From a virus (lineage: Duplodnaviria; Heunggongvirae; Uroviricota; Caudoviricetes): a stretch of DNA of 6,008 nucleotides. The position numbers were made by a program, and so were the translations under genes. The stretch lies in IMG/VR virus record IMGVR_UViG_2778261570_000020; one strand, 5' to 3'. Shown one piece after another: positions 1 to 6,008 of the stretch. Under the pieces are notes generated by a model that had not been told where the DNA came from, did no database searches, and saw only the letters and a program-made list of their open reading frames with translations. Position 1 is the stretch's first letter; every line of letters begins with the position of its first letter.

Positions 1-1
1 C

Positions 2-127
2 TGGCCTCTGTACGAGAAAATCGCGCAGGCATTTAAGCAGGCTGCCGCAGAGCTGAATACCCCCATCGAATGGGGCGGTGAGTGGCGGTCGTTAAAGGAC
101 GGGCCTCACTTTCAGCTGAAACGATAA
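2..127 (+). CDS. 3' end of a CDS truncated by the window start; possible peptidase M15-type phage endolysin (L-alanyl-D-glutamate peptidase-like)
   Basis: Open frame from position 2 to TAA at 125-127, translating ...WPLYEKIAQAFKQAAAELNTPIEWGGEWRSLKDGPHFQLKR. The C-terminal W-x-D-G-x-H-[FV]-[QE]-L pattern resembles the C-terminus of M15-family phage endolysins (e.g. the T5 endolysin ends ...YDGGHVELV). Position upstream of small membrane ORFs and a cos/terminase block fits a lysis gene. Only 41 residues are visible. Confidence 0.4.
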   Translation, partial: WPLYEKIAQAFKQAAAELNTPIEWGGEWRSLKDGPHFQLKR

Positions 128-134
128 ATAAGGC

Positions 135-172
135 AAAGCCCCGGTTGTTGGAGCAATCGGGGCTTTGTGTTT
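135..172 (+). terminator. Hairpin/terminator-like structure downstream of the first CDS
   Basis: AAAGCCCCG (135-143) is the exact reverse complement of CGGGGCTTT (158-166); the stem can extend inward to about 13 bp with one G-U, followed by GTGTTTA. The T-tract is interrupted, so terminator efficiency is uncertain. Confidence 0.45.
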
Positions 173-208
173 ATGGATTCATTTTGTGAATGCGCATGGG
201 GATCATTC

Positions 209-406
209 ATGCCAGTAAAGCCTAACACGACGAAAGATAAATTTGGAGATGATCTGATGATAAAAGCAGAAACCACCCCGCAGGGGGCTGATGATGCCGC
301 AAAAATCATCGCGGTATGCCGGGGCATCAGACACATACTAACGCCAGTTGCATGGATTATTTGTACCGCACTGGTTGCATACACAACAATTTATTTAAAC
401 AGATGA
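209..406 (+). CDS. Hypothetical small protein (65 aa) with a C-terminal hydrophobic segment
   Basis: ATG at 209 preceded by GGGGA; translation MPVKPNTTKDKFGDD...LTPVAWIICTALVAYTTIYLNR ends in a likely transmembrane helix. Its stop overlaps the next start in an ATGA unit (ATG 403-405 / TGA 404-406), suggesting translational coupling. No recognisable family. Confidence 0.3.
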   Translation: MPVKPNTTKDKFGDDLMIKAETTPQGADDAAKIIAVCRGIRHILTPVAWIICTALVAYTTIYLNR

Positions 407-519
407 GTGCTGATTTTATTCGGGCGGTGGCTTTTGCCATTAAGTGGGTGGCGGTTGGCATTGCCGTGTCTCCGATACTGTATGGGCTGGCAAAATTGAT
501 TGTTGCTCTGAAATCGTGA
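403..519 (+). CDS. Hypothetical 38-aa hydrophobic single-pass membrane peptide
   Basis: MSADFIRAVAFAIKWVAVGIAVSPILYGLAKLIVALKS is almost entirely one predicted TM helix. Start overlaps the upstream stop (ATGA) and its own stop TGA 517-519 overlaps a GTG at 516-518 in the next frame. No strong RBS, so confidence is low. Confidence 0.25.
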   Translation: MSADFIRAVAFAIKWVAVGIAVSPILYGLAKLIVALKS

Positions 520-527
520 GTGGTGAT

Positions 528-710
528 ATGACGCGAAAACACTGGACACACAGAATGCCGCGAACGGCGGCGAAATGGGCACTGGTAGCGATACTGGTGC
601 CTTTTTTCCTGGTGGGATGCGTCAGTCTGGATAAGGCGCGCCAGCTTTTCGATACGGCTTCTCAGGTCTGCGAAATTGTCGACGGTGTTCGACAGTGTCT
701 GCAGAGCTGA
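528..710 (+). CDS. Putative small lipoprotein (about 60 aa precursor; alternative GTG start at 516)
   Basis: Translation MTRKHWTHRMPRTAAKWALVAILVPFFLVGCVSLDKARQLFDTASQVCEIVDGVRQCLQS: basic n-region, hydrophobic h-region and an L-V-G-C lipobox, leaving a roughly 30-residue mature peptide with three Cys. Third member of the coupled trio downstream of the endolysin-like gene. Confidence 0.4.
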   Translation: MTRKHWTHRMPRTAAKWALVAILVPFFLVGCVSLDKARQLFDTASQVCEIVDGVRQCLQS

Positions 711-722
711 ACGCCCGTAAGA

Positions 723-780
723 GCAGAATATTTCGCTGAAAAATGAAGGGTGCGCCAGCGTCCGGAAAGCATGAAATTCT
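723..780. repeat. Copy 1 of a ~58-bp imperfect direct repeat (perfect 20-bp core CGTCCGGAAAGCATGAAATT at 759-778)
   Basis: The 20-mer at 759-778 recurs exactly at 5876-5895. Flanking sequence is also similar: GCTGAAAAATGA (735-746) versus GCTAAAAAATGA (5852-5863), and GCCAG before the core with a 1-nt indel. Confidence 0.7.
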
Positions 781-883
781 GCTGTGTGTGTCAATTTGTC
801 TTATACATTCTGAATTTTGCCTAATCAGGATGAACTTTGAACAACAGCCCGGGCGGCAAGGGGCATTTTTATCCGGAGGGGAT

Positions 884-1108
884 ATGAAGAGATTACTGGT
901 AACCGTAAAGCCCTTTAACGGAACGATTCCATTCAGGGTTTTGCAGCGTGGACGTGTTCTGGTTAAGGATATCTTCAGTGGTAAATGCACGGAGTGTTAT
1001 TCCCGGACATATGAAGTGGATGCCACGGATGAAGAAATTTCTGTTGAATGTGATCTGAACGCAAATATGGTGGGGATTGTAACGGCCACGTTGTTGCCTG
1101 TTTCATGA
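884..1108 (+). CDS. Hypothetical protein (74 aa)
   Basis: ATG at 884 preceded by the Shine-Dalgarno-like GGAGGGG with correct spacing; the 12-mer GGAGGGGATATG is identical to the initiation region of the small terminase gene at 2026-2039. Translation MKRLLVTVKPFNGTIPFRVLQRGRVLVKDIFSGKCTECYSRTYEVDATDEEISVECDLNANMVGIVTATLLPVS. The ORF track extends this frame upstream to 743, but that N-terminal extension lacks an RBS and has odd composition. Confidence 0.5.
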   Translation: MKRLLVTVKPFNGTIPFRVLQRGRVLVKDIFSGKCTECYSRTYEVDATDEEISVECDLNANMVGIVTATLLPVS

Positions 1109-1148
1109 ATGACATAGAATGTCTCTGGGTACCCAAAAGGAGAACACT

Positions 1149-1364
1149 ATGTTTGTAGAAAATAACCTGAAGGCTGATCCTGATAATCAGGGATGGGTTC
1201 TTGGTTGGGCTGTAGTACGTGACAAACCCTGGCATCTGGTCGGCATTTATGCAACGGAGGATGGCGCAAAGTCTAAACGCTCTGAATTGAATGGGGAGTA
1301 TGAAGTTCATTATGGTTCCCATCGTTTAGGTAGTGATGATTTTATGTCTGTCGGACTTAGCTAA
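1149..1364 (+). CDS. Hypothetical protein (71 aa)
   Basis: ATG at 1149 preceded by AAGGAG with good spacing; translation MFVENNLKADPDNQGWVLGWAVVRDKPWHLVGIYATEDGAKSKRSELNGEYEVHYGSHRLGSDDFMSVGLS. Followed by a strong intrinsic terminator. Confidence 0.55.
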   Translation: MFVENNLKADPDNQGWVLGWAVVRDKPWHLVGIYATEDGAKSKRSELNGEYEVHYGSHRLGSDDFMSVGLS

Positions 1365-1386
1365 CTGGCTGTGATGCCTGTTTGTA

Positions 1387-1410
1387 GCCCCGCAAATGCG
1401 GGGCTTTTTT
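1387..1410 (+). terminator. Rho-independent terminator
   Basis: GCCCCGC (1387-1393), loop AAAT, GCGGGGC (1398-1404), then TTTTTT (1405-1410): a perfect 7-bp GC-rich stem plus a T-tract. Confidence 0.7.
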
Positions 1411-1420
1411 ATATCTGGAG

Positions 1421-1723
1421 ATGATGATGGAAAAAACAGAAAACAAACCGGTTGCAATTGGTGCTGTGGCTGTTCCGTTTAAGTTTGAACTGTCACAACT
1501 GGTGGAGATGCGCATCAGTGATGAATGGGGTGAGGTTAAAGCCCGCGCGCAGTATGCGTATGGCGAAAACCAGTACCTGATCCACTACAAAGCAGCTGAT
1601 GGTCGCGCCACGACGGAGTGGTTTGGTGAGTCAATGCTGGAAGCAACAGAAGATGATCGTCATCCTGGTTGTCCGGTATTTGCCTGCATGAAATTACCGG
1701 AAGGCGCAGTCGTTACTGAGTAA
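1421..1723 (+). CDS. Hypothetical protein (about 98-100 aa; start at one of the tandem ATGs 1421/1424/1427)
   Basis: GGAG at 1417-1420 followed by three consecutive ATG codons; translation MMMEKTENKPVAIGAVAVPFKFELSQLVEMRISDEWGEVKARAQYAYGENQYLIHYKAADGRATTEWFGESMLEATEDDRHPGCPVFACMKLPEGAVVTE, stop TAA 1721-1723. Acidic and soluble-looking; no recognisable family. Confidence 0.55.
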   Translation: MMMEKTENKPVAIGAVAVPFKFELSQLVEMRISDEWGEVKARAQYAYGENQYLIHYKAADGRATTEWFGESMLEATEDDRHPGCPVFACMKLPEGAVVTE

Positions 1724-2036
1724 CAGGCATTACAGCAGCCCTTCAGTGTGAGGGGCTGCGATAATGCAGGTGTTAGAGTGTGTGCAAATGATAATTGCTC
1801 CCATTTTCACGGGTCCTCCCGGTGGGGTACCCTTGCCACGGGGCGGGAGCGGCGCGGAAAAAGGCTAGTTTTTGCATTTTCATTCATCATCATCATCTTT
1901 TCAATGCATTGAATTTAAACGAATTTTATTTTTAGTATGTTAATTTTGCGTGTTTTTTGGTCAACATATAACGCACTTTATAACGCTTTTTGAAAAGGTG
2001 TTCGCAAGATGCATGTTTAAAACGTCAGGAGGGGAT
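1724..2036. other. Putative cos / packaging-initiation region upstream of the small terminase gene
   Basis: A 313-bp non-coding interval immediately 5' of a Nu1-like terS. It contains a G-rich tract CGGGGCGGGAGCGGCGCGG (1839-1857) that resembles but is not identical to the lambda cohesive end GGGCGGCGACCT, then an AT-rich stretch with CAT repeats (1881-1896) and a perfect 14-bp palindrome TTCAATGCATTGAA (1900-1913). The roughly 190-bp spacing from the G-rich tract to the terS ATG matches the lambda cosN-to-Nu1 layout. Confidence 0.35.
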
Positions 2037-2528
2037 ATGGATCGTGAGTTGAAAAATCTGATGCTGAACATTAACCAACTGGCGGCAATAGCAGGTATAT
2101 GTCGTCAGACTGCGGCGGCAAGACTGCAAAACATCCAGCCCGCCGGAGGACATGACAAGTTAAAGCTCTACCGGGTGGCAGATATTGTGTCGGCATTTCT
2201 GGCATTACCACCGCCGGTTGCAGAAGGCGAAATGGACGCGCATGAGCGCAAAGCCTGGTATCAGTCTGAACGTGAGCGTCTTAAGTTCGAACAGGAAACG
2301 GCACAACTCATTCCGGCCAGTGATGTCAGACGGGAGTTTGCCATCTGGGCAAAAGCGGTCGTGCAGGTGCTGGAGACATTACCGGATATTCTTGAACGTG
2401 ACTGCGGTCTGCAGCCTGCCGCTGTGAGCCGTGTTCAGTCCATTATTGATGATCTGCGCGATCAGATAGCCCTGCGGGTGACTGAAGCAGGTGCGGATGA
2501 TGAGGAGGAATTACAGCAGGAGGAGTAA
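2037..2528 (+). CDS. Terminase small subunit, Nu1-like (164 aa)
   Basis: ATG at 2037 with a strong AGGAGGGG RBS. The N-terminus MDRELKNLMLNINQLAAIAGICRQTAAARL...KLYRVADIVSAF parallels the lambda Nu1 helix-turn-helix region (KKQLADIFGASIRTIQNW...VLYDSAAVIKWY), with an acidic C-terminus. Stop TAA 2526-2528 overlaps the ATG of the large-subunit gene (TAATG). The longer track ORF from 1950 would run through the cos-like region and is not preferred. Confidence 0.75.
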   Translation: MDRELKNLMLNINQLAAIAGICRQTAAARLQNIQPAGGHDKLKLYRVADIVSAFLALPPPVAEGEMDAHERKAWYQSERERLKFEQETAQLIPASDVRREFAIWAKAVVQVLETLPDILERDCGLQPAAVSRVQSIIDDLRDQIALRVTEAGADDEEELQQEE

Positions 2529-3523
2529 TGCTGAATCAGGAAACCGCAAAGGCAGCACGAACCGATTCAGGTTATATCCTTCGCGCACCGAGACGAATGC
2601 GGGTTGCTGATGCCGTTGCTCAGTATATGCGGGTGCCTATGGGGGCAGGGAACTCAGTCCCGTGGGATCCGCTGGTGGCACCGTATGTTATTGAGCCTAT
2701 GAACTGCCTGGCCTCGCGTGAATACGACGCAGTGATATTTGTTGGCCCGGCACGAACCGGCAAGACTATCGGCCTGATTGACGGCTGGGTGATTTACAAC
2801 GTGATTTGCGATCCTGCTGATATGCTGATCATTCAGATGACGGAGGAAAAAGCCCGCGAACACTCCAAAAAACGACTCGCCAGAACGTTTCGCGTCAGCC
2901 CGGAAGTGGTCAGTCGCCTGAGTCCGAACAAAAATGACAACAACGTTTATGACAGAACATTCCTTGCCGGCAATTACCTGAAAATCGGCTGGCCGTCAGT
3001 CAATATCATGTCCTCATCAGATTATAAATGTGTGGCGCTGACGGATTATGACCGTTTTCCGGAAGATATTGATGGTGAGGGGGATGCCTTCTCTCTTGCT
3101 TCAAAACGAACCACCACATTTATGTCCAGCGGTATGACGCTGGTGGAAAGTTCACCCGGCAGGGATGTGAAAGATGTGAAATGGCGACGGACTTCACCGC
3201 ATGAGGCTCCGCCAACCACGGGGATCCTGTCACTCTATAACCGTGGCGATCGTCGTCGCTGGTACTGGCCCTGCCCACACTGTGGTGAGTATTTTCAGCC
3301 CTGTGGCGATGTGGTTGCTGGTTTTCGTGATATTGCCGATCCCGTGCTGGCAAGTGAGGCAGCTTATATTCAGTGCCCTTCCTGTTCCGGGCGAATTATG
3401 CCTGACCAGAAACGCGAGCTGAACGGACGTGGGGTCTGGTTGCGGGATGGTGAATCCATCAATGCAGACGGCAGTCGTTATGGTGAGCCCCGGCGCTCAC
3501 GTATTGCGTCATTCTGGATGTAG
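2528..3523 (+). CDS. Terminase large subunit, GpA-like, N-terminal half only (331 aa; C-terminally truncated, likely remnant/pseudogene)
   Basis: Walker A-type motif VGPARTGKT and cysteine motifs WPCPHCGEYFQPCGD and CPSCSG that parallel lambda gpA (ACPHCGEEQYLKFGD, then GIWTRDG versus GVWLRDG here). Lambda gpA is about 640 aa; this frame stops at ...RIASFWM where gpA continues (...VTFHIWTAYSPF...), and no continuation is visible in any frame downstream. Confidence 0.8.
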   Translation: MLNQETAKAARTDSGYILRAPRRMRVADAVAQYMRVPMGAGNSVPWDPLVAPYVIEPMNCLASREYDAVIFVGPARTGKTIGLIDGWVIYNVICDPADMLIIQMTEEKAREHSKKRLARTFRVSPEVVSRLSPNKNDNNVYDRTFLAGNYLKIGWPSVNIMSSSDYKCVALTDYDRFPEDIDGEGDAFSLASKRTTTFMSSGMTLVESSPGRDVKDVKWRRTSPHEAPPTTGILSLYNRGDRRRWYWPCPHCGEYFQPCGDVVAGFRDIADPVLASEAAYIQCPSCSGRIMPDQKRELNGRGVWLRDGESINADGSRYGEPRRSRIASFWM

Positions 3524-3609
3524 GGTACATTTCTTACCTGTTTTTATGTTCTGGTGTCGTTTTGTAGTCTTTTCAATGAGTTGTGATTTTTTGTGTTTCC
3601 TCTCTTTAC

Positions 3610-3639
3610 TTGATAATGAGTTAGTTTATCGCTTGTTAT
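3610..3639 (+). promoter_or_regulatory. Possible sigma70-like promoter and direct repeats upstream of the integrase gene
   Basis: TTGATA (3610-3615), 18 bp, TGTTAT (3634-3639) in an AT-rich spacer; TTATCG is directly repeated at 3626-3631 and 3636-3641. Purely motif-based. Confidence 0.2.
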
Positions 3640-3684
3640 CGACTTGAAAGGACTACATGACGGACTAAAAAATGAGGGCGATAG

Positions 3685-4923
3685 ATGCCGGTAAAGCCAT
3701 TAACCGTGACTGAAGTTAAGGGGATGAAACCACGTGAAAAGGACTATGCCGTTTATGATGGGTTCGGTTTATTGCTGAATGTGAGTAAAGCTGGTGGGAA
3801 AGTGTGGCGTTTCCGTTATAGCCATCCGATAACGAAGAAACGGCAGACATACACGATAGGGCGTTTTCCTGAATTCTCACTCGCGGAAGCACGGGAAATA
3901 CGTGATGAACTTCGGCGAATGATTGCACGTGGAGTTGATCCAGTGACAGAGAAGAAAAATCGTAAAATTGAGATGTCACTAAAAAATCTACAAACATTTG
4001 AAGCTGTTGCTAATGCATGGATCGCTTTTAAAAAGGGATCGGAATTGCGGAAACCTACGCTGTATAATATCGAATATGAAGTATACAAATATCTTGTTCC
4101 TTTCTTTGGTAAGTACAGCATAGAGAAAATTACAGCGCCAGTAGCTATTAATGCTCTGGATGCCGTATCCGATAAGAATGCGTTGCAAAAAAAATTAATA
4201 TCAAGATTAAATGAAATTATGAATTACGCTGTAAATTGTGGAGCATTGAAAACGAATCCATTACTTAAGATAAAAACTGCATTCACAGGAAAGAAAAATA
4301 AATCATTAGCTGCACTACCTGTTGAAAGATTGCCTGAATTTCTGAGTTGGTGGGATAGTGTGCCTCATAAGTATCAAATAGCTCACAATGCACTTTTATT
4401 CCAGATATTGACAATGGTCAGGCCAGGTGAGGCGATTAAAGCAGAGTGGTCCGAGATTGATTTTGATTCTGGCTTGTGGATTATCCCTGCGCATAAAATG
4501 AAATGCCATCGTGAACATGTTGTGCCTCTCTCATCACAGGCTATTAGAATCCTAAGAACAATGCAGAAAATAAAAAGAGGGCGTTATATATTTTTTTCCT
4601 CCAGAACAAAAGATGCTCCTATGGGAAAGAATACTATCAATACCCCAATTGCTGCCAGCAAGTTCAAAGGGATTGTAACGTTACACGGTTTTCGTTCGAT
4701 GTGGAGTACGCTTTTAAATGAGGAGGGTTTTAACCCTGATGTTATTGAGGCTGCATTAGCACATAAAAGTGGTGATAAAATAAGAGATATTTATAATAGA
4801 ACTACTTATTTAGAACAACGCAAAATTATGATGCAATGGGTAGGAGATTTTTTTGATGAGGCGAGAAAAGGGGTAATTAATAGATCCGGTGGTAAGAAAG
4901 GTTTGAGAATAGTAAATGGTTGA
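3685..4923 (+). CDS. int: Tyrosine site-specific integrase, P4-type (412 aa)
   Basis: N-terminal arm-binding-type domain (MPVKPLTVTEVKGMKPREKDYAVYDGFGLLLNVSKAGGKVWRFRYSHP..., characteristic of P4-like integrases). Catalytic motifs are present: RPGE box (MVRPGEAIKAEW), HGFRSMWST (H-x-x-R) and the C-terminal tyrosine region AHKSGDKIRDIYNRTTY. RBS GAGGG upstream of ATG 3685. Gene is AT-rich relative to the terminase block. Confidence 0.9.
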   Translation: MPVKPLTVTEVKGMKPREKDYAVYDGFGLLLNVSKAGGKVWRFRYSHPITKKRQTYTIGRFPEFSLAEAREIRDELRRMIARGVDPVTEKKNRKIEMSLKNLQTFEAVANAWIAFKKGSELRKPTLYNIEYEVYKYLVPFFGKYSIEKITAPVAINALDAVSDKNALQKKLISRLNEIMNYAVNCGALKTNPLLKIKTAFTGKKNKSLAALPVERLPEFLSWWDSVPHKYQIAHNALLFQILTMVRPGEAIKAEWSEIDFDSGLWIIPAHKMKCHREHVVPLSSQAIRILRTMQKIKRGRYIFFSSRTKDAPMGKNTINTPIAASKFKGIVTLHGFRSMWSTLLNEEGFNPDVIEAALAHKSGDKIRDIYNRTTYLEQRKIMMQWVGDFFDEARKGVINRSGGKKGLRIVNG

Positions 4924-4935
4924 GGAGTTCAGCAA

Positions 4936-5139
4936 ATGAATACCAATGAAGATATTTTATTTACTAAAGACGTAATGAAAATTTTGCGCTATGGGGCAAT
5001 GAGCGCATTCATCAATTTCTGGAAAGATGAAAATAATGGTTTTCCTCAACCGTTCAGAATTGGGCGGCGGCATACCTGGCACCGTAGAGATGTAGAGGCA
5101 TGGTTAGATAAACAACGAGAACAGGCCAATCCCCACTAA
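4936..5139 (+). CDS. alpA: AlpA-family (excisionase-like) DNA-binding regulator (67 aa)
   Basis: Small protein immediately 3' of the integrase (13-bp gap, RBS GAGGAG). The pattern ...KDVMKILRYGAMSAFINFWKDENNGFPQPFRIGRRHTWHRRDVEAWLDKQ matches the AlpA / prophage CP4-57 regulatory protein architecture (HTH, then a conserved FP-x-P-hydrophobic-x-G motif, then W-x3-[DE]-x2-[EA]-W). Confidence 0.7.
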   Translation: MNTNEDILFTKDVMKILRYGAMSAFINFWKDENNGFPQPFRIGRRHTWHRRDVEAWLDKQREQANPH

Positions 5140-5153
5140 TAATATCTTTCATA

Positions 5154-5178
5154 CCCCGCACGCAATGCGGGGTTTTTT
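5154..5178 (+). terminator. Rho-independent terminator
   Basis: CCCCGCA (5154-5160), loop CGCAA, TGCGGGG (5166-5172), then TTTTTT (5173-5178). Confidence 0.75.
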
Positions 5179-5197
5179 GTATGTGAGGTAAAAAACG

Positions 5198-5779
5198 ATG
5201 AATAAAAATATTGCCGTGACGGGCAAGGGGTACGCTCGTTCAGTAAAAAAATTCTGCGATATTCGTGATCTTGTCGTTCTGCGCTTTGATGGCGTGGATG
5301 TTCGTGTGGTGTATCTGAACGGCGATCCGTGGTTTGTTGCAAAGGATGTTTGTGAAGCTCTGGAAATAAGCAACTCACGCGATGCTCTAAAAGCTCTGGA
5401 TGTGGATGAGAAGAATACCGTCGCTTTAAGCTACGGTATTCGCGGAAATCCAAATCATAGCGTCGTTTCTGAATCTGGTTTTTACAAGCTGATCGCCAGA
5501 AGTCGCAAAGCTGTTACTCCTGGCACGTTCGCCCATCGTTTCAGTAATTGGGTATTCAGAAATGTGATACCGGGTATCAGAAAAACGGGGGCTTATGGTA
5601 TCCCGTGGGGCGCATTGCAGGATTTTTCCCGCCGCAAAGAGCAATACCGGATAAGTGCCAGCGAGAAGGGGAGGGCGCTACAGGCATGTAAGCGCAAAAA
5701 GCGTGAACTGGAGGAAGAAGAAAAAAGGCTGATACGTGAATATCAGCCTGAGTTTTACTTTGGTGAGCGTATTCAGTAA
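5198..5779 (+). CDS. Bro-N domain protein (phage antirepressor-like; 193 aa)
   Basis: RBS TGAGGT 8 nt upstream of ATG 5198. Conserved Bro-N signature blocks: VVLRFDGVDVRVVYLNGDPWFVAKDVCEAL...SRDALKALDVDEK, then SESGFYKLIARSRKA...FAHRFSNWVFRNVIPGIRKTGAYG. C-terminal 50 residues are highly charged (KRKKRELEEEEKRLIRE). Confidence 0.8.
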   Translation: MNKNIAVTGKGYARSVKKFCDIRDLVVLRFDGVDVRVVYLNGDPWFVAKDVCEALEISNSRDALKALDVDEKNTVALSYGIRGNPNHSVVSESGFYKLIARSRKAVTPGTFAHRFSNWVFRNVIPGIRKTGAYGIPWGALQDFSRRKEQYRISASEKGRALQACKRKKRELEEEEKRLIREYQPEFYFGERIQ

Positions 5780-5824
5780 CCGCGTACGGTGCTGATTATA
5801 CGGTACATCGTGTTAACCGGGAAG

Positions 5825-5939
5825 TTACCCACCAGCAAGGCAAAATCTTCTGCTAAAAAATGACATATGGCCAGTCGTCCGGAAAGCATGAAATTTTACA
5901 AAAATGGAAAATGAAGATTTTTATTGTGCTGGTGGGTAA
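5825..5939. repeat. Perfect 13-bp inverted repeat (TTACCCACCAGCA at 5825-5837 / TGCTGGTGGGTAA at 5927-5939) enclosing an 89-bp spacer
   Basis: Exact reverse-complement arms read directly from the sequence; the spacer contains the second copy of the direct repeat. Confidence 0.7.
5840..5897. repeat. Copy 2 of the ~58-bp imperfect direct repeat (perfect 20-bp core at 5876-5895)
   Basis: See copy 1 at 723-780; the core CGTCCGGAAAGCATGAAATT is identical in both. Confidence 0.7.
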
Positions 5940-5970
5940 AAACAAAAAGCGCCCCGTTGCCGGAGCGCCC
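5938..5970 (-). terminator. Possible intrinsic terminator for a minus-strand transcript entering from beyond the right edge
   Basis: On the minus strand GGGCGCUCCGG-CAAC-GGGGCGC forms an imperfect GC-rich hairpin (about 8 bp including one G-U) followed by UUUUUGUUUUU (plus-strand AAAAACAAAAA at 5938-5948). Confidence 0.35.
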
Positions 5971-6008
5971 TTGCGAACAATTAACCTACTGCGCAAAAAA
6001 TGAATCTG

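What the first reader, a model, noticed from the sequence alone, without database searches (positions are those of the whole stretch)
884..1723. Uncharacterised small-gene cassette between the lysis genes and cos
Three ORFs of 74, 71 and about 100 aa have good ribosome-binding sites, and a strong terminator at 1387-1410 separates the first two from the third. None shows a domain I can recognise by eye. The 74-aa product has a C-x2-C-x16-C arrangement. The lysis-to-cos interval is a known moron insertion site in lambdoid phages, so these are candidates for host-interaction or anti-/pro-defence functions.
Basis: inference. Interest (0 to 1): 0.45.

Follow-up and report, generated by a model that had tools for sequence, protein, structure and literature searches.

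The report
Small accessory genes after phage lysis genes
Three small, real but uncharacterised prophage genes sit between the lysis and DNA-packaging genes as two swappable cargo units; this is an ordinary kind of phage accessory region, and no function could be assigned.

Summary
ORF1 (884-1108, 74 aa), ORF2 (1149-1364, 71 aa) and ORF3 (probably 1427-1723, 98 aa) have good ribosome-binding sites. A strong terminator (1386-1410) follows ORF2. All three match PHROG families of unknown function and are under purifying selection (dN/dS 0.14-0.31). None matches Pfam, NCBIfam, PADLOC or PDB sequences.

They form two independent units. ORF1+ORF2+terminator (791-1410) is a clean insertion/deletion relative to phage phiP27. 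ORF3 occurs in 164 of 5426 E. coli genomes, ORF1-2 in 44, and all three in 24.

An ORF1-like gene lies directly upstream of an ORF2-like gene in 48 of 80 viral contigs, with ORF2 identity as low as 51%. ORF2 relatives also occur alone, on the opposite strand inside tail gene clusters of Pseudomonas and Vreelandella prophages.

The cysteine motif in ORF1 is not conserved, so it is not a metal site. ORF2 gives a confident model (pLDDT 94.9) with no significant structural neighbour.

The best reading is dispensable, late-transcribed cargo proteins acting by binding in phage-host or phage-phage conflict. This function is inferred, not shown.

Nearby, and already described in the literature, a helper-embedded satellite splits the large terminase gene.

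The parts
723..778 (+). Conserved 56-nt element ('D1') at the left edge of the variable cargo region. It has box GCTGAAAAATGA, about 13 variable nt, then box CGTCCGGAAAGCATGAAATT. A second copy lies at 5840-5895 in the embedded satellite.
   Evidence: It is a direct repeat whose last 20 nt are identical. The 20-mer occurs in at least 120 viral contigs. The cargo downstream of it varies. Homology to phiP27 breaks at 790. No conserved RNA structure was found. Function unknown.
791..1410 (+). Unit A as an insertion/deletion block: leader, ORF1, ORF2 and terminator. phiP27 has about 79 nt here instead.
   Evidence: blastn of the window against phiP27 aligns 527-790 and 1411-1775 but not 791-1410. 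E. coli genomes carry 866-1417 without ORF3.
884..1108 (+). ORF1, 74 aa, pI 6.2, no signal peptide or membrane segment seen on reading the sequence. It belongs to a family of 70-81 aa proteins (MKxLxVT..F.V.Q.G.VLVED..SGK..Y.R.Y.V.A.D..L.VEH).
   Evidence: phrog_2571, E = 4e-28. 48 close homologs. 47 hits among 1.84 billion representative proteins. dN/dS 0.15-0.19. The cysteines are not conserved.
1149..1364 (+). ORF2, 71 aa, pI 5.1. It is a compact alpha/beta protein with conserved DPDN-GWVLGW and GSHRLGSDDF motifs.
   Evidence: phrog_4280, E = 2.5e-41. Homologs occur in Escherichia, Providencia, Serratia, Pseudomonas and Vreelandella. The AlphaFold2 model has pLDDT 94.9. No significant Foldseek match in PDB or BFVD. 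dN/dS 0.14.
1386..1410 (+). Intrinsic terminator closing unit A. It is also the recombination junction between units A and B.
   Evidence: Partial matches in E. coli genomes break at 1407-1417.
1427..1723 (+). ORF3, 98 aa (100 aa if translation starts at 1421), pI 4.8. It has a conserved beta-rich core at about residues 20-75 of the 100-aa form and a tail containing HPGCPVFA. It is a homolog of phiP27 L33.
   Evidence: phrog_1935, E = 1.8e-59. 82 homologs. 93% identical to phiP27 L33. dN/dS about 0.30. The AlphaFold2 model is unusable, pLDDT 45.

Best explanation
The interval holds two independently mobile accessory units in the late operon of a P27-like lambdoid prophage. They lie downstream of the lysis genes (two holins, an M15 endolysin and small membrane or lipoproteins) and upstream of the packaging genes. 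Unit A is ORF1 plus ORF2 plus a terminator. Unit B is ORF3.

Shown: all three are real, selected genes. They are dispensable, being present in only 0.4-3% of complete E. coli genomes and missing from close relatives. Units A and B are exchanged separately, at a conserved junction. Near-identical ORF3 copies travel with the lysis module and precede at least three different packaging modules. ORF1-like and ORF2-like genes are a recurrent adjacent pair. ORF2 can also stand alone in unrelated positions.

Inferred: in this phage they are transcribed with the late genes by antiterminated read-through, because no promoter of their own is visible. The products are small, soluble, neutral-to-acidic cytoplasmic proteins without catalytic motifs, so they would work by binding another macromolecule or a small ligand. 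ORF1 and ORF2 probably act together.

The most likely role is in phage-host or phage-phage conflict late in infection, such as blocking a host defence or excluding a competitor, rather than a core step of lysis, packaging or assembly.
For: - Real genes.
- No known domain.
- Insertion/deletion of 791-1410 relative to phiP27.
- Independent distribution: all three in 24 of 5426 genomes, ORF1-2 in 44, ORF3 in 164.
- ORF1-2 sits behind an unrelated S/R/Rz lysis cassette and before a lambda-type Nu1 terminase in strain SBF22.
- ORF3 sits without ORF1-2 in strain EC11.
- Near-identical ORF3 copies always follow the M15-lipoprotein lysis module. They precede three different packaging modules: DUF1441 small terminase, HNH plus P27 small terminase, or ParB/TAGT plus a further small terminase type.
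- ORF1-like directly upstream of ORF2-like in 48 of 80 viral contigs, in at least 8 spacing classes and down to 51% ORF2 identity. The pair is also seen in mEp237 and in L024/L025.
- ORF2 alone, on the opposite strand inside tail clusters of Pseudomonas and Vreelandella prophages and a P. aeruginosa phage.
- ORF2 alone between Q and the holin in Providencia, and after the spanin in Serratia.
- No promoter-like site upstream of ORF1. ORF1 homolog overlaps the Rz stop codon by ATGA.
- pI 4.8-6.2. No signal peptide or membrane segment was seen on reading the sequences; no predictor was run.
Against: - No experiment or homology links any of the three to a defence or counter-defence activity.
- PADLOC gave nothing. 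No anti-defence library was available.
- The ORF2 model resembles anti-CRISPR AcrIIC1 only at noise level (TM 0.40, E > 1).
- The recurrent position right after the spanin gene (ORF1, ORF3), or next to the small terminase gene (ORF3 in P2-like phages), fits a lysis or packaging helper equally well.
- G+C content (0.44-0.49) does not differ from the window (0.46), so nothing marks the genes as foreign.
- The lack of a promoter rests on a simple consensus scan.
Confidence: 0.45

Rival explanations
1. The proteins are auxiliary lysis or packaging factors. They would be small cytoplasmic regulators that tune the holin, endolysin or spanin (as T4 RIII or P1 LydB do), or that help the terminase at cos.
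For: - ORF1 homologs overlap the Rz stop codon in Stx phages. They follow the last lysis gene in SBF22 and mEp237.
- ORF3 homologs follow the spanin-type gene (Pfam Phage_lysis) in Salmonella lambdoid and P2-like prophages.
- ORF3 homologs follow the small terminase gene in P2-like Yersinia and ESSI2 phages. One lies upstream of HNH plus small terminase in a Burkholderia phage.
- In 78 of the 80 closest ORF3 loci, ORF3 follows the lipoprotein lysis-module gene.
Against: - The genes are absent from many close relatives with the same lysis genes. About 35 D1-bearing loci with the lipoprotein gene have none of the three. phiP27 lacks ORF1-2.
- ORF1-2 works behind two unrelated lysis cassettes. 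ORF3 precedes at least three unrelated terminase types.
- ORF2 relatives sit in tail clusters or upstream of holins.
- No membrane segment and no similarity to known lysis regulators.
Confidence: 0.25
2. The genes are classical morons expressed from the prophage. They would have their own promoter and terminator and benefit the lysogen, for example by superinfection exclusion or a host-fitness trait.
For: - Unit A ends in a strong terminator inside a late operon and is an insertion/deletion between relatives.
- ORF2 relatives on the opposite strand in tail operons must have their own promoter. One has a promoter-like site with an extended -10 about 50 nt upstream.
Against: - No promoter-like site lies in 711-883.
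- In SBF22 only about 18 nt upstream of ORF1 are shared, and the gap to the preceding lysis gene is 24 nt.
- In Stx phages ORF1 overlaps Rz.
- The proteins have no signal peptide or membrane segment, unlike many exclusion proteins.
Confidence: 0.18
3. ORF1 is a small zinc- or metal-binding protein that uses the C-x2-C...C motif.
For: Three cysteines lie at positions 35, 38 and 56. C35 and C56 are invariant among close E. coli and Salmonella homologs.
Against: - C38 is replaced by S, G or L in close homologs.
- In more distant family members C35 becomes A, T, V or I and C56 becomes H or others. No column holding a cysteine is conserved.
- Only three potential ligands exist.
Confidence: 0.03
4. 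The ORFs are chance open frames or decaying pseudogenes in a prophage remnant.
For: The prophage is disrupted downstream, where a satellite splits the large terminase gene. The proteins are small and unannotated by function.
Against: - PHROG matches and dN/dS well below 1.
- Identical proteins occur in intact prophages with a complete terminase, portal and capsid (L007, L011).
- Homologs extend across genera.
Confidence: 0.02

Closest known systems
Morons of lambdoid phages (the Hendrix/Juhala concept, e.g. lambda bor and lom, HK97 morons; from established knowledge)
   Same: - Extra genes inserted between conserved late modules.
- Present or absent between close relatives at a precise junction.
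- Unit A carries its own terminator.
- The location, the lysis-to-packaging interval, is the one lambda uses for bor.
   Different: - No promoter of its own is detectable here.
- The genes are co-oriented with the late operon, and ORF1 is translationally coupled to Rz in some phages.
- Base composition is not atypical.
- No known phenotype.
PHROG families phrog_2571, phrog_4280 and phrog_1935; phiP27 gene L33
   Same: The three proteins are members by sequence. ORF3 is 93% identical to phiP27 L33.
   Different: These families are labelled 'unknown function', so membership adds no mechanism.
Pfam DUF7336 and DUF2188 small proteins
   Same: Some ORF2 relatives match DUF7336 (6 of 33, best E = 6.8e-5). 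One matches DUF2188 weakly (E = 0.12), and one is named DUF2188 by UniRef. DUF2188 proteins have been noted next to defence operons in the literature.
   Different: The window protein itself hits neither family. Its only Pfam hit is DUF7457 at E = 0.15, below the cut-off. The families are themselves uncharacterised.
Small phage anti-defence proteins (anti-CRISPRs, Ocr-like mimics, nucleotide sponges such as Acb2 and Tad)
   Same: Small, acidic and non-enzymatic. Patchily distributed accessory genes that move between phage genomes and positions.
   Different: No sequence or significant structural similarity. The best match is AcrIIC1 at TM 0.40, E > 1. No activity was tested.
Cytoplasmic lysis regulators (T4 RIII, P1 LydB; from established knowledge)
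   Same: Small soluble proteins encoded with or next to the lysis cassette.
   Different: No homology. The genes are dispensable among phages with the same lysis genes, and ORF2 occurs far from lysis genes.
Helper-embedded satellites (Tommasini, Mageeney & Williams, bioRxiv 10.1101/2022.07.18.500453). This concerns the neighbouring feature, not the finding.
   Same: An integrase, an AlpA-like gene and a Bro-N gene are co-oriented inside a cognate of lambda gene A (large terminase), as that paper describes.
   Different: None noted. It appears to be an ordinary member.

Membership tests
Moron (autonomous transcription unit inserted in a phage operon) | Present or absent between otherwise collinear relatives, with a sharp junction | tested here: met
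   Window 791-1410 is replaced by about 79 nt in phiP27, while 527-790 and 1411-1775 align at 94%. Units A and B are found separately in E. coli genomes.
Moron (autonomous transcription unit inserted in a phage operon) | Own transcription terminator | tested here: met
   For unit A: stem 1386-1405 plus a T run, z = -3.24. No terminator-like site was listed after ORF3.
Moron (autonomous transcription unit inserted in a phage operon) | Own promoter | tested here: not met
   No sigma-70-like site on the + strand in 711-883 or 1365-1426. ORF1 homologs abut or overlap the preceding lysis gene elsewhere. This was a consensus scan only, so weak or non-sigma-70 promoters are not excluded.
Moron (autonomous transcription unit inserted in a phage operon) | Base composition different from the flanking phage genes | tested here: not met
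   G+C is 0.44, 0.44 and 0.49 for ORF1, ORF2 and ORF3, against 0.46 for the window.
PHROG phrog_2571, phrog_4280, phrog_1935 | Significant match to the family profile | tested here: met
   E = 4.2e-28, 2.5e-41 and 1.8e-59.
Pfam DUF2188 / DUF7336 (ORF2) | Score above the Pfam gathering threshold | tested here: not met
   Window ORF2 hits only DUF7457 at E = 0.15, 12.5 bits against a cut-off of 27. Among 33 relatives, 6 hit DUF7336 (best E = 6.8e-5) and 1 hits DUF2188 (E = 0.12).
Cysteine-based metal-binding motif, zinc-ribbon-like (ORF1) | Conservation of the liganding cysteines across the family | tested here: not met
   C38 is variable in close homologs. None of C35, C38 and C56 is conserved in the wider family.
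Known anti-phage defence system proteins (PADLOC-DB) | Significant match to a defence protein model | tested here: not met
   No hits for ORF1 or ORF2. ORF3 has only Cas6_IIIh at E = 0.032, 11.6 bits.
Known anti-defence proteins (anti-CRISPR, sponges, DNA mimics) | Sequence or structural similarity to a characterised member, or demonstrated inhibition | tested here: inconclusive
Two-gene functional module (ORF1 + ORF2) | Adjacency kept across diverged lineages | tested here: met
   48 of 80 viral loci have an ORF1-family gene directly upstream on the same strand. This spans at least 8 spacing classes and ORF2 identity from 99% to 51%. hhalign of the ORF1 profile against mEp237_060 gives probability 95%. 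The pairing is not obligate: each gene also occurs alone.
Helper-embedded satellite (neighbouring feature, 3524 to the window end) | Integrase plus AlpA, co-oriented, interrupting a prophage late gene, with the rest of that gene beyond the island | tested here: met
   In the window, the gpA-type large terminase stops at residue 331 (about 700 in intact copies such as L011). It is followed by an integrase, an AlpA-like gene and a Bro-N gene. In strain TUM1881 a related island splits a P27-type large terminase gene, and the C-terminal fragment follows the island. The family definition comes from the paper. The far end lies outside this window.

The most novel reading that the evidence does not exclude
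ORF1 and ORF2 form a two-protein, late-expressed counter-defence or exclusion module. ORF2 would be a compact alpha/beta protein with no structural neighbour found, carrying invariant Trp, His, Arg and Asp residues. It would be the active binder, for instance of a host immune protein or a signalling nucleotide. ORF1 would be an accessory partner used only in enterobacterial lambdoid phages. ORF3 would be a separate inhibitor. The conserved D1 element would be the recombination linker that lets such cargo be swapped between helper phages and their embedded satellites.
Probability: 0.12. Interest if true: 0.6.

Novelty: new member of a known kind. Interest (0 to 1): 0.3.

Why it matters
If the conflict reading is right, these would be three more small phage proteins to test as inhibitors of bacterial immunity or of rival phages. 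ORF2 is the best candidate. It is widespread in Gammaproteobacteria prophages, it can be modelled with confidence, and it has no structural neighbour in the libraries that could be searched.

The analysis also shows how cargo is organised at the lysis-packaging junction of P27-like phages. Units are exchanged at a conserved 56-nt element and at a terminator. As it stands, however, the finding is a typical set of hypothetical accessory genes that are already catalogued without function in RefSeq and PHROGs.

Tried and rejected
- **Domain and sequence searches.** Pfam, NCBIfam, PADLOC and PDB-sequence searches, with single sequences and with profiles, gave nothing significant for any of the three ORFs.
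- **ORF3 structure.** The AlphaFold2 model was too poor to use (pLDDT 45). Only its four predicted strands are noted.
- **ORF1 deep search.** The hits in long repetitive proteins (P0191, P0212, P0220) are cystatin or zinc-finger repeat proteins where scanned, and look spurious.
- **ORF1 and gpJ FNIII-A domains.** 4 of 28 family members match this domain weakly (best E = 0.02). A direct profile search of two J-like tail proteins did not support the link.
- **DUF2188 as a lead to defence.** The literature only notes neighbourhood with defence operons. ORF2 does not meet the family threshold.
- **Rfam.** There is only a sub-threshold GcvB match at 1277-1412 (25.7 bits against a gathering score of 42), probably driven by the terminator. 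No C4 or isrK immunity RNA was found.
- **D1 as a structured RNA or a small ORF.** This was rejected. RNAalifold gives -0.82 kcal/mol with no covariation. Single-sequence z-scores are not significant. 1-nt insertions/deletions break the frame from its ATG.
- **mEp460 record ends for locating cos.** The record starts at the small terminase start codon, so its ends are not the cohesive ends.
- **Literature search by PHROG number.** It found nothing.
Full report
**What is in the window.** The window is the late region of a lambdoid prophage.
- It starts with the end of an M15-family endolysin (2-127; Peptidase_M15_4, phrog_465).
- Three small genes follow: 209-406; 403-519 (a hydrophobic 38-aa product, phrog_1115); and 528-710 (a 60-aa lipoprotein with an LVGC lipobox, phrog_7528).
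- Then come the three ORFs of the finding.
- Next are a G+C-rich cos-like region, a DUF1441 small terminase gene (2037-2528) and a gpA-type large terminase gene.
- The large terminase gene stops after 331 codons at 3523. It is followed by an integrase (3685-4923), an AlpA-like gene (4936-5139) and a Bro-N gene (5198-5779).

**Check of the observation.**
- ORF1 (884-1108), ORF2 (1149-1364) and ORF3 (1421 or 1427 to 1723) all have Shine-Dalgarno sequences at sensible distances.
- For ORF3 the third ATG, at 1427, has the best spacing (6 nt). It is the start used in public annotations, giving 98 aa.
- The terminator at 1386-1410 is one of the two strongest in the window. It folds far better than shuffled sequence (z = -3.24).
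- The cysteines of ORF1 are at positions 35, 38 and 56, so the spacing is x2/x17, not x2/x16.

**Are they genes?** Yes.
- Each matches a PHROG family of unknown function with E between 4e-28 and 2e-59.
- Each has tens of homolog clusters in the 5.8-billion-protein collection.
- Comparison with diverged copies gives dN/dS of 0.15-0.19 (ORF1), 0.14 (ORF2) and about 0.30 (ORF3).
- Identical proteins occur in intact prophages with complete packaging and head genes (L007, L011).
- No Pfam, NCBIfam, PADLOC or PDB-sequence match reaches significance, with single sequences or with family profiles.

**Two units, not one cassette.**
- Window 1-1767 is 99.6% identical to a P27-like prophage of E. coli PSS-15. 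There the same three genes are followed by an HNH endonuclease and a P27-type terminase rather than the lambda-type terminase seen here.
- Phage phiP27 aligns to 527-790 and 1411-1775 but has about 79 nt in place of 791-1410. So ORF1+ORF2+terminator is a clean insertion/deletion.
- Among 5426 complete E. coli genomes, 24 carry all three genes, 44 carry ORF1-2 sequence and 164 carry ORF3. Partial matches break at 1407-1417, on the terminator.
- In strain SBF22, ORF1-ORF2 sit behind an unrelated holin/lysozyme/Rz cassette and before a Nu1-type terminase, without ORF3.
- In strain EC11, ORF3 sits alone behind the M15 lysis genes and before yet another packaging module.
- Of the 80 closest ORF3 loci in IMG/VR, 78 have ORF3 downstream of the lipoprotein gene; in the other 2 no upstream gene was recognised. 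11 have ORF1-ORF2 in between. The packaging genes that follow are of at least three kinds.
- So the close ORF3 copies belong to the lysis-side module, not to the terminase.

**ORF1.**
- Close homologs are confined to Escherichia and Salmonella.
- In Stx-converting phages the homolog starts with an ATGA overlap on the stop codon of Rz.
- An exhaustive profile search of 1.84 billion representative proteins found only 47 hits. Most are 70-81 aa proteins sharing MKxLxVT..F.V.Q.G.VLVED..SGK..Y.R.Y.V.A.D..L.VEH.
- In this wider family none of the three cysteines is kept, and C38 already varies among close homologs.
- The sequence pattern suggests an all-beta domain.
- A weak resemblance to the FNIII-A domain of tail protein J was not confirmed.

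**ORF2.**
- This family reaches Providencia, Serratia, Pseudomonas and Vreelandella. It has invariant or near-invariant residues in DPDN-GWVLGW, PW and GSHRLGSDDF.
- AlphaFold2 gives a confident model: pLDDT 94.9, pTM 0.83. It has a beta-hairpin sheet, one helix and two more strands.
- Some relatives weakly match DUF7336 or DUF2188, but the window protein does not.
- Context is informative. In Pseudomonas and Vreelandella prophages and in P. aeruginosa phage YMC11/02/R656, the gene stands alone on the opposite strand inside the tail gene cluster.
- In Providencia it lies between the Q antiterminator and the holin. In Serratia it lies after the spanin gene.
- A gene that keeps its sequence while changing position, orientation and neighbours is unlikely to be a part of lysis, packaging or assembly.

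**ORF1 and ORF2 as a pair.**
- In mEp237 the gene before the ORF2 homolog is a diverged ORF1-family member: hhalign probability 95%, about 35% identity.
- The same holds in two further contigs, L024 and L025.
- Across the 80 best ORF2 loci in IMG/VR, 48 have an ORF1-family gene directly upstream on the same strand. These fall in at least eight spacing classes, with ORF2 identity from 99% down to 51%.
- Given how rare the ORF1 family is, this association is not chance. It suggests the two products act together, although each can occur alone.

**ORF3.**
- It is the homolog of phiP27 L33 (93% identity). It is acidic (pI 4.8). It has a conserved core at about residues 20-75 that is predicted to be beta strands, and a tail containing HPGCPVFA.
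- The model was too uncertain to search with (pLDDT 45).
- More distant relatives lie after the spanin-type gene in Salmonella lambdoid and P2-like prophages. Others lie between the small terminase and head-completion genes of P2-like Yersinia and ESSI2 phages. Others lie near HNH/terminase or among early genes in Burkholderia phages.
- It is thus a late-operon gene in several phage types, but it is not universal in any of them.

**How it most likely works.**
- Shown: these are genuine, selected, dispensable genes, organised as two exchangeable units at the lysis-packaging junction. ORF1-ORF2 is a recurrent pair. ORF2 is position-independent.
- Inferred: in this phage they are transcribed as part of the late RNA. 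No promoter-like site precedes them, and ORF1 is coupled to Rz elsewhere. The terminators in the operon, including one after the endolysin at 134-167, would be read through by the antiterminated polymerase.
- Inferred: the proteins are small, soluble and non-enzymatic, so they should act by binding.
- Their patchy distribution, modular exchange and (for ORF2) freedom of position fit accessory conflict genes, meaning counter-defence or competitor exclusion, better than helpers of lysis or packaging. I put this at about 0.45.
- The lysis or packaging helper reading (0.25) is kept alive by the repeated position next to spanin or terminase genes.
- A prophage-expressed moron reading (0.18) is kept alive by the terminator and by the opposite-strand ORF2 relatives.

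**The junction element.**
- Just upstream of ORF1, 723-778 is a 56-nt direct repeat of 5840-5895, which lies behind the Bro-N gene of the satellite. The last 20 nt are identical.
- The 20-mer occurs in at least 120 viral contigs.
- It has two conserved boxes around a variable stretch of about 13 nt.
- It follows the lipoprotein gene in about 80 cases and a Bro-N gene in 26. The cargo after it differs: none of the three ORFs, ORF3 only, ORF1-2-3, or ORF1 alone.
- Homology to phiP27 breaks 12 nt after it.
- It shows no conserved RNA structure, and the reading frame from its ATG is not kept.
- It may be a recombination linker or a binding site. This is unresolved.

**The neighbouring satellite.**
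- The truncated large terminase followed by integrase, AlpA and Bro-N is common in E. coli.
- In strain TUM1881 a related island of about 17 kb, carrying its own capsid, portal and terminase genes, splits a P27-type large terminase gene. The C-terminal fragment follows the island.
- This is the helper-embedded satellite configuration described by Tommasini, Mageeney and Williams. They mapped such islands to cognates of lambda gene A and other late genes. It is therefore known and not part of the finding.

**Verdict.** These are uncharacterised accessory genes in a known accessory slot, already catalogued as hypothetical proteins. The added value is fourfold: the two-unit structure, the conserved ORF1-ORF2 pairing, the confident but unmatched ORF2 model, and the removal of the cysteine motif as a clue. 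Function remains inferred. Interest is modest at 0.3.

Noticed in passing
window 2528-3523 and 3524-6008; L034 (E. coli TUM1881) 1126-19777: The gpA-type large terminase gene is cut after 331 codons. It is followed by a co-oriented integrase, an AlpA-like gene and a Bro-N gene. In TUM1881 a related island of about 17 kb, with its own capsid, portal and terminase genes, splits a P27-type large terminase gene, and the C-terminal fragment follows the island. This matches the published 'helper-embedded satellite' type (bioRxiv 10.1101/2022.07.18.500453).
   Followed up: yes
window 723-778 and 5840-5895: A 56-nt direct repeat ends in an identical 20-mer, CGTCCGGAAAGCATGAAATT, that occurs in at least 120 viral contigs. 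It has two conserved boxes around about 13 variable nt. It sits at the boundary where the downstream cargo differs between phages, and also behind the Bro-N gene of satellites. It has no conserved RNA fold, no kept reading frame and no Rfam hit. Its function is unknown.
   Followed up: partly
window 209-710: The M15 endolysin is followed by three small genes instead of a recognisable Rz/Rz1 spanin pair. They encode a 65-aa protein with a C-terminal hydrophobic segment, a 38-aa hydrophobic protein and a 60-aa lipoprotein (LVGC lipobox). They may be an unusual outer-membrane disruption set.
   Followed up: no
window 134-167: A terminator-like hairpin (CAAAGCCCCGGTTG / CAATCGGGGCTTTG, then a T-rich tail) lies directly after the endolysin gene. 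The late operon therefore contains at least two internal terminators.
   Followed up: no
window 1368-1382 and 1722-1736: A 15-nt inverted repeat (14 of 15 complementary) brackets the terminator plus ORF3, that is unit B. It could be chance or a trace of how the unit moves.
   Followed up: no
window 1801-1895; L003 14627-14722: The cos-like region upstream of the small terminase gene is 76% identical to a segment near the right end of the satellite in E. coli JNEC-KY179. This is consistent with the satellite carrying a helper-like packaging site.
   Followed up: partly
L012 (GCA_027276865.1) about 6226-12225: In one E. coli assembly a Mu-like transposable prophage (Mu transposase, TniB-like ATPase) sits directly after ORF1, where ORF2 and ORF3 would be.
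   Followed up: no
window 1277-1412: A sub-threshold Rfam match to GcvB (25.7 bits against a gathering score of 42, E = 0.013) covers the 3' end of ORF2 and the terminator. It is probably driven by the terminator hairpin.
   Followed up: no
L006 (Yersinia phage vB_YpM_44) 3195-3908; P0103, P0133, P0136: Some ORF3 relatives are longer (130-237 aa). They have an extra C-terminal segment (…GKPEYSRIEVNNGHICLIPA) and, as annotated in the Yersinia phage, an N-terminal extension. The ORF3 core can therefore be part of a larger protein.
   Followed up: no
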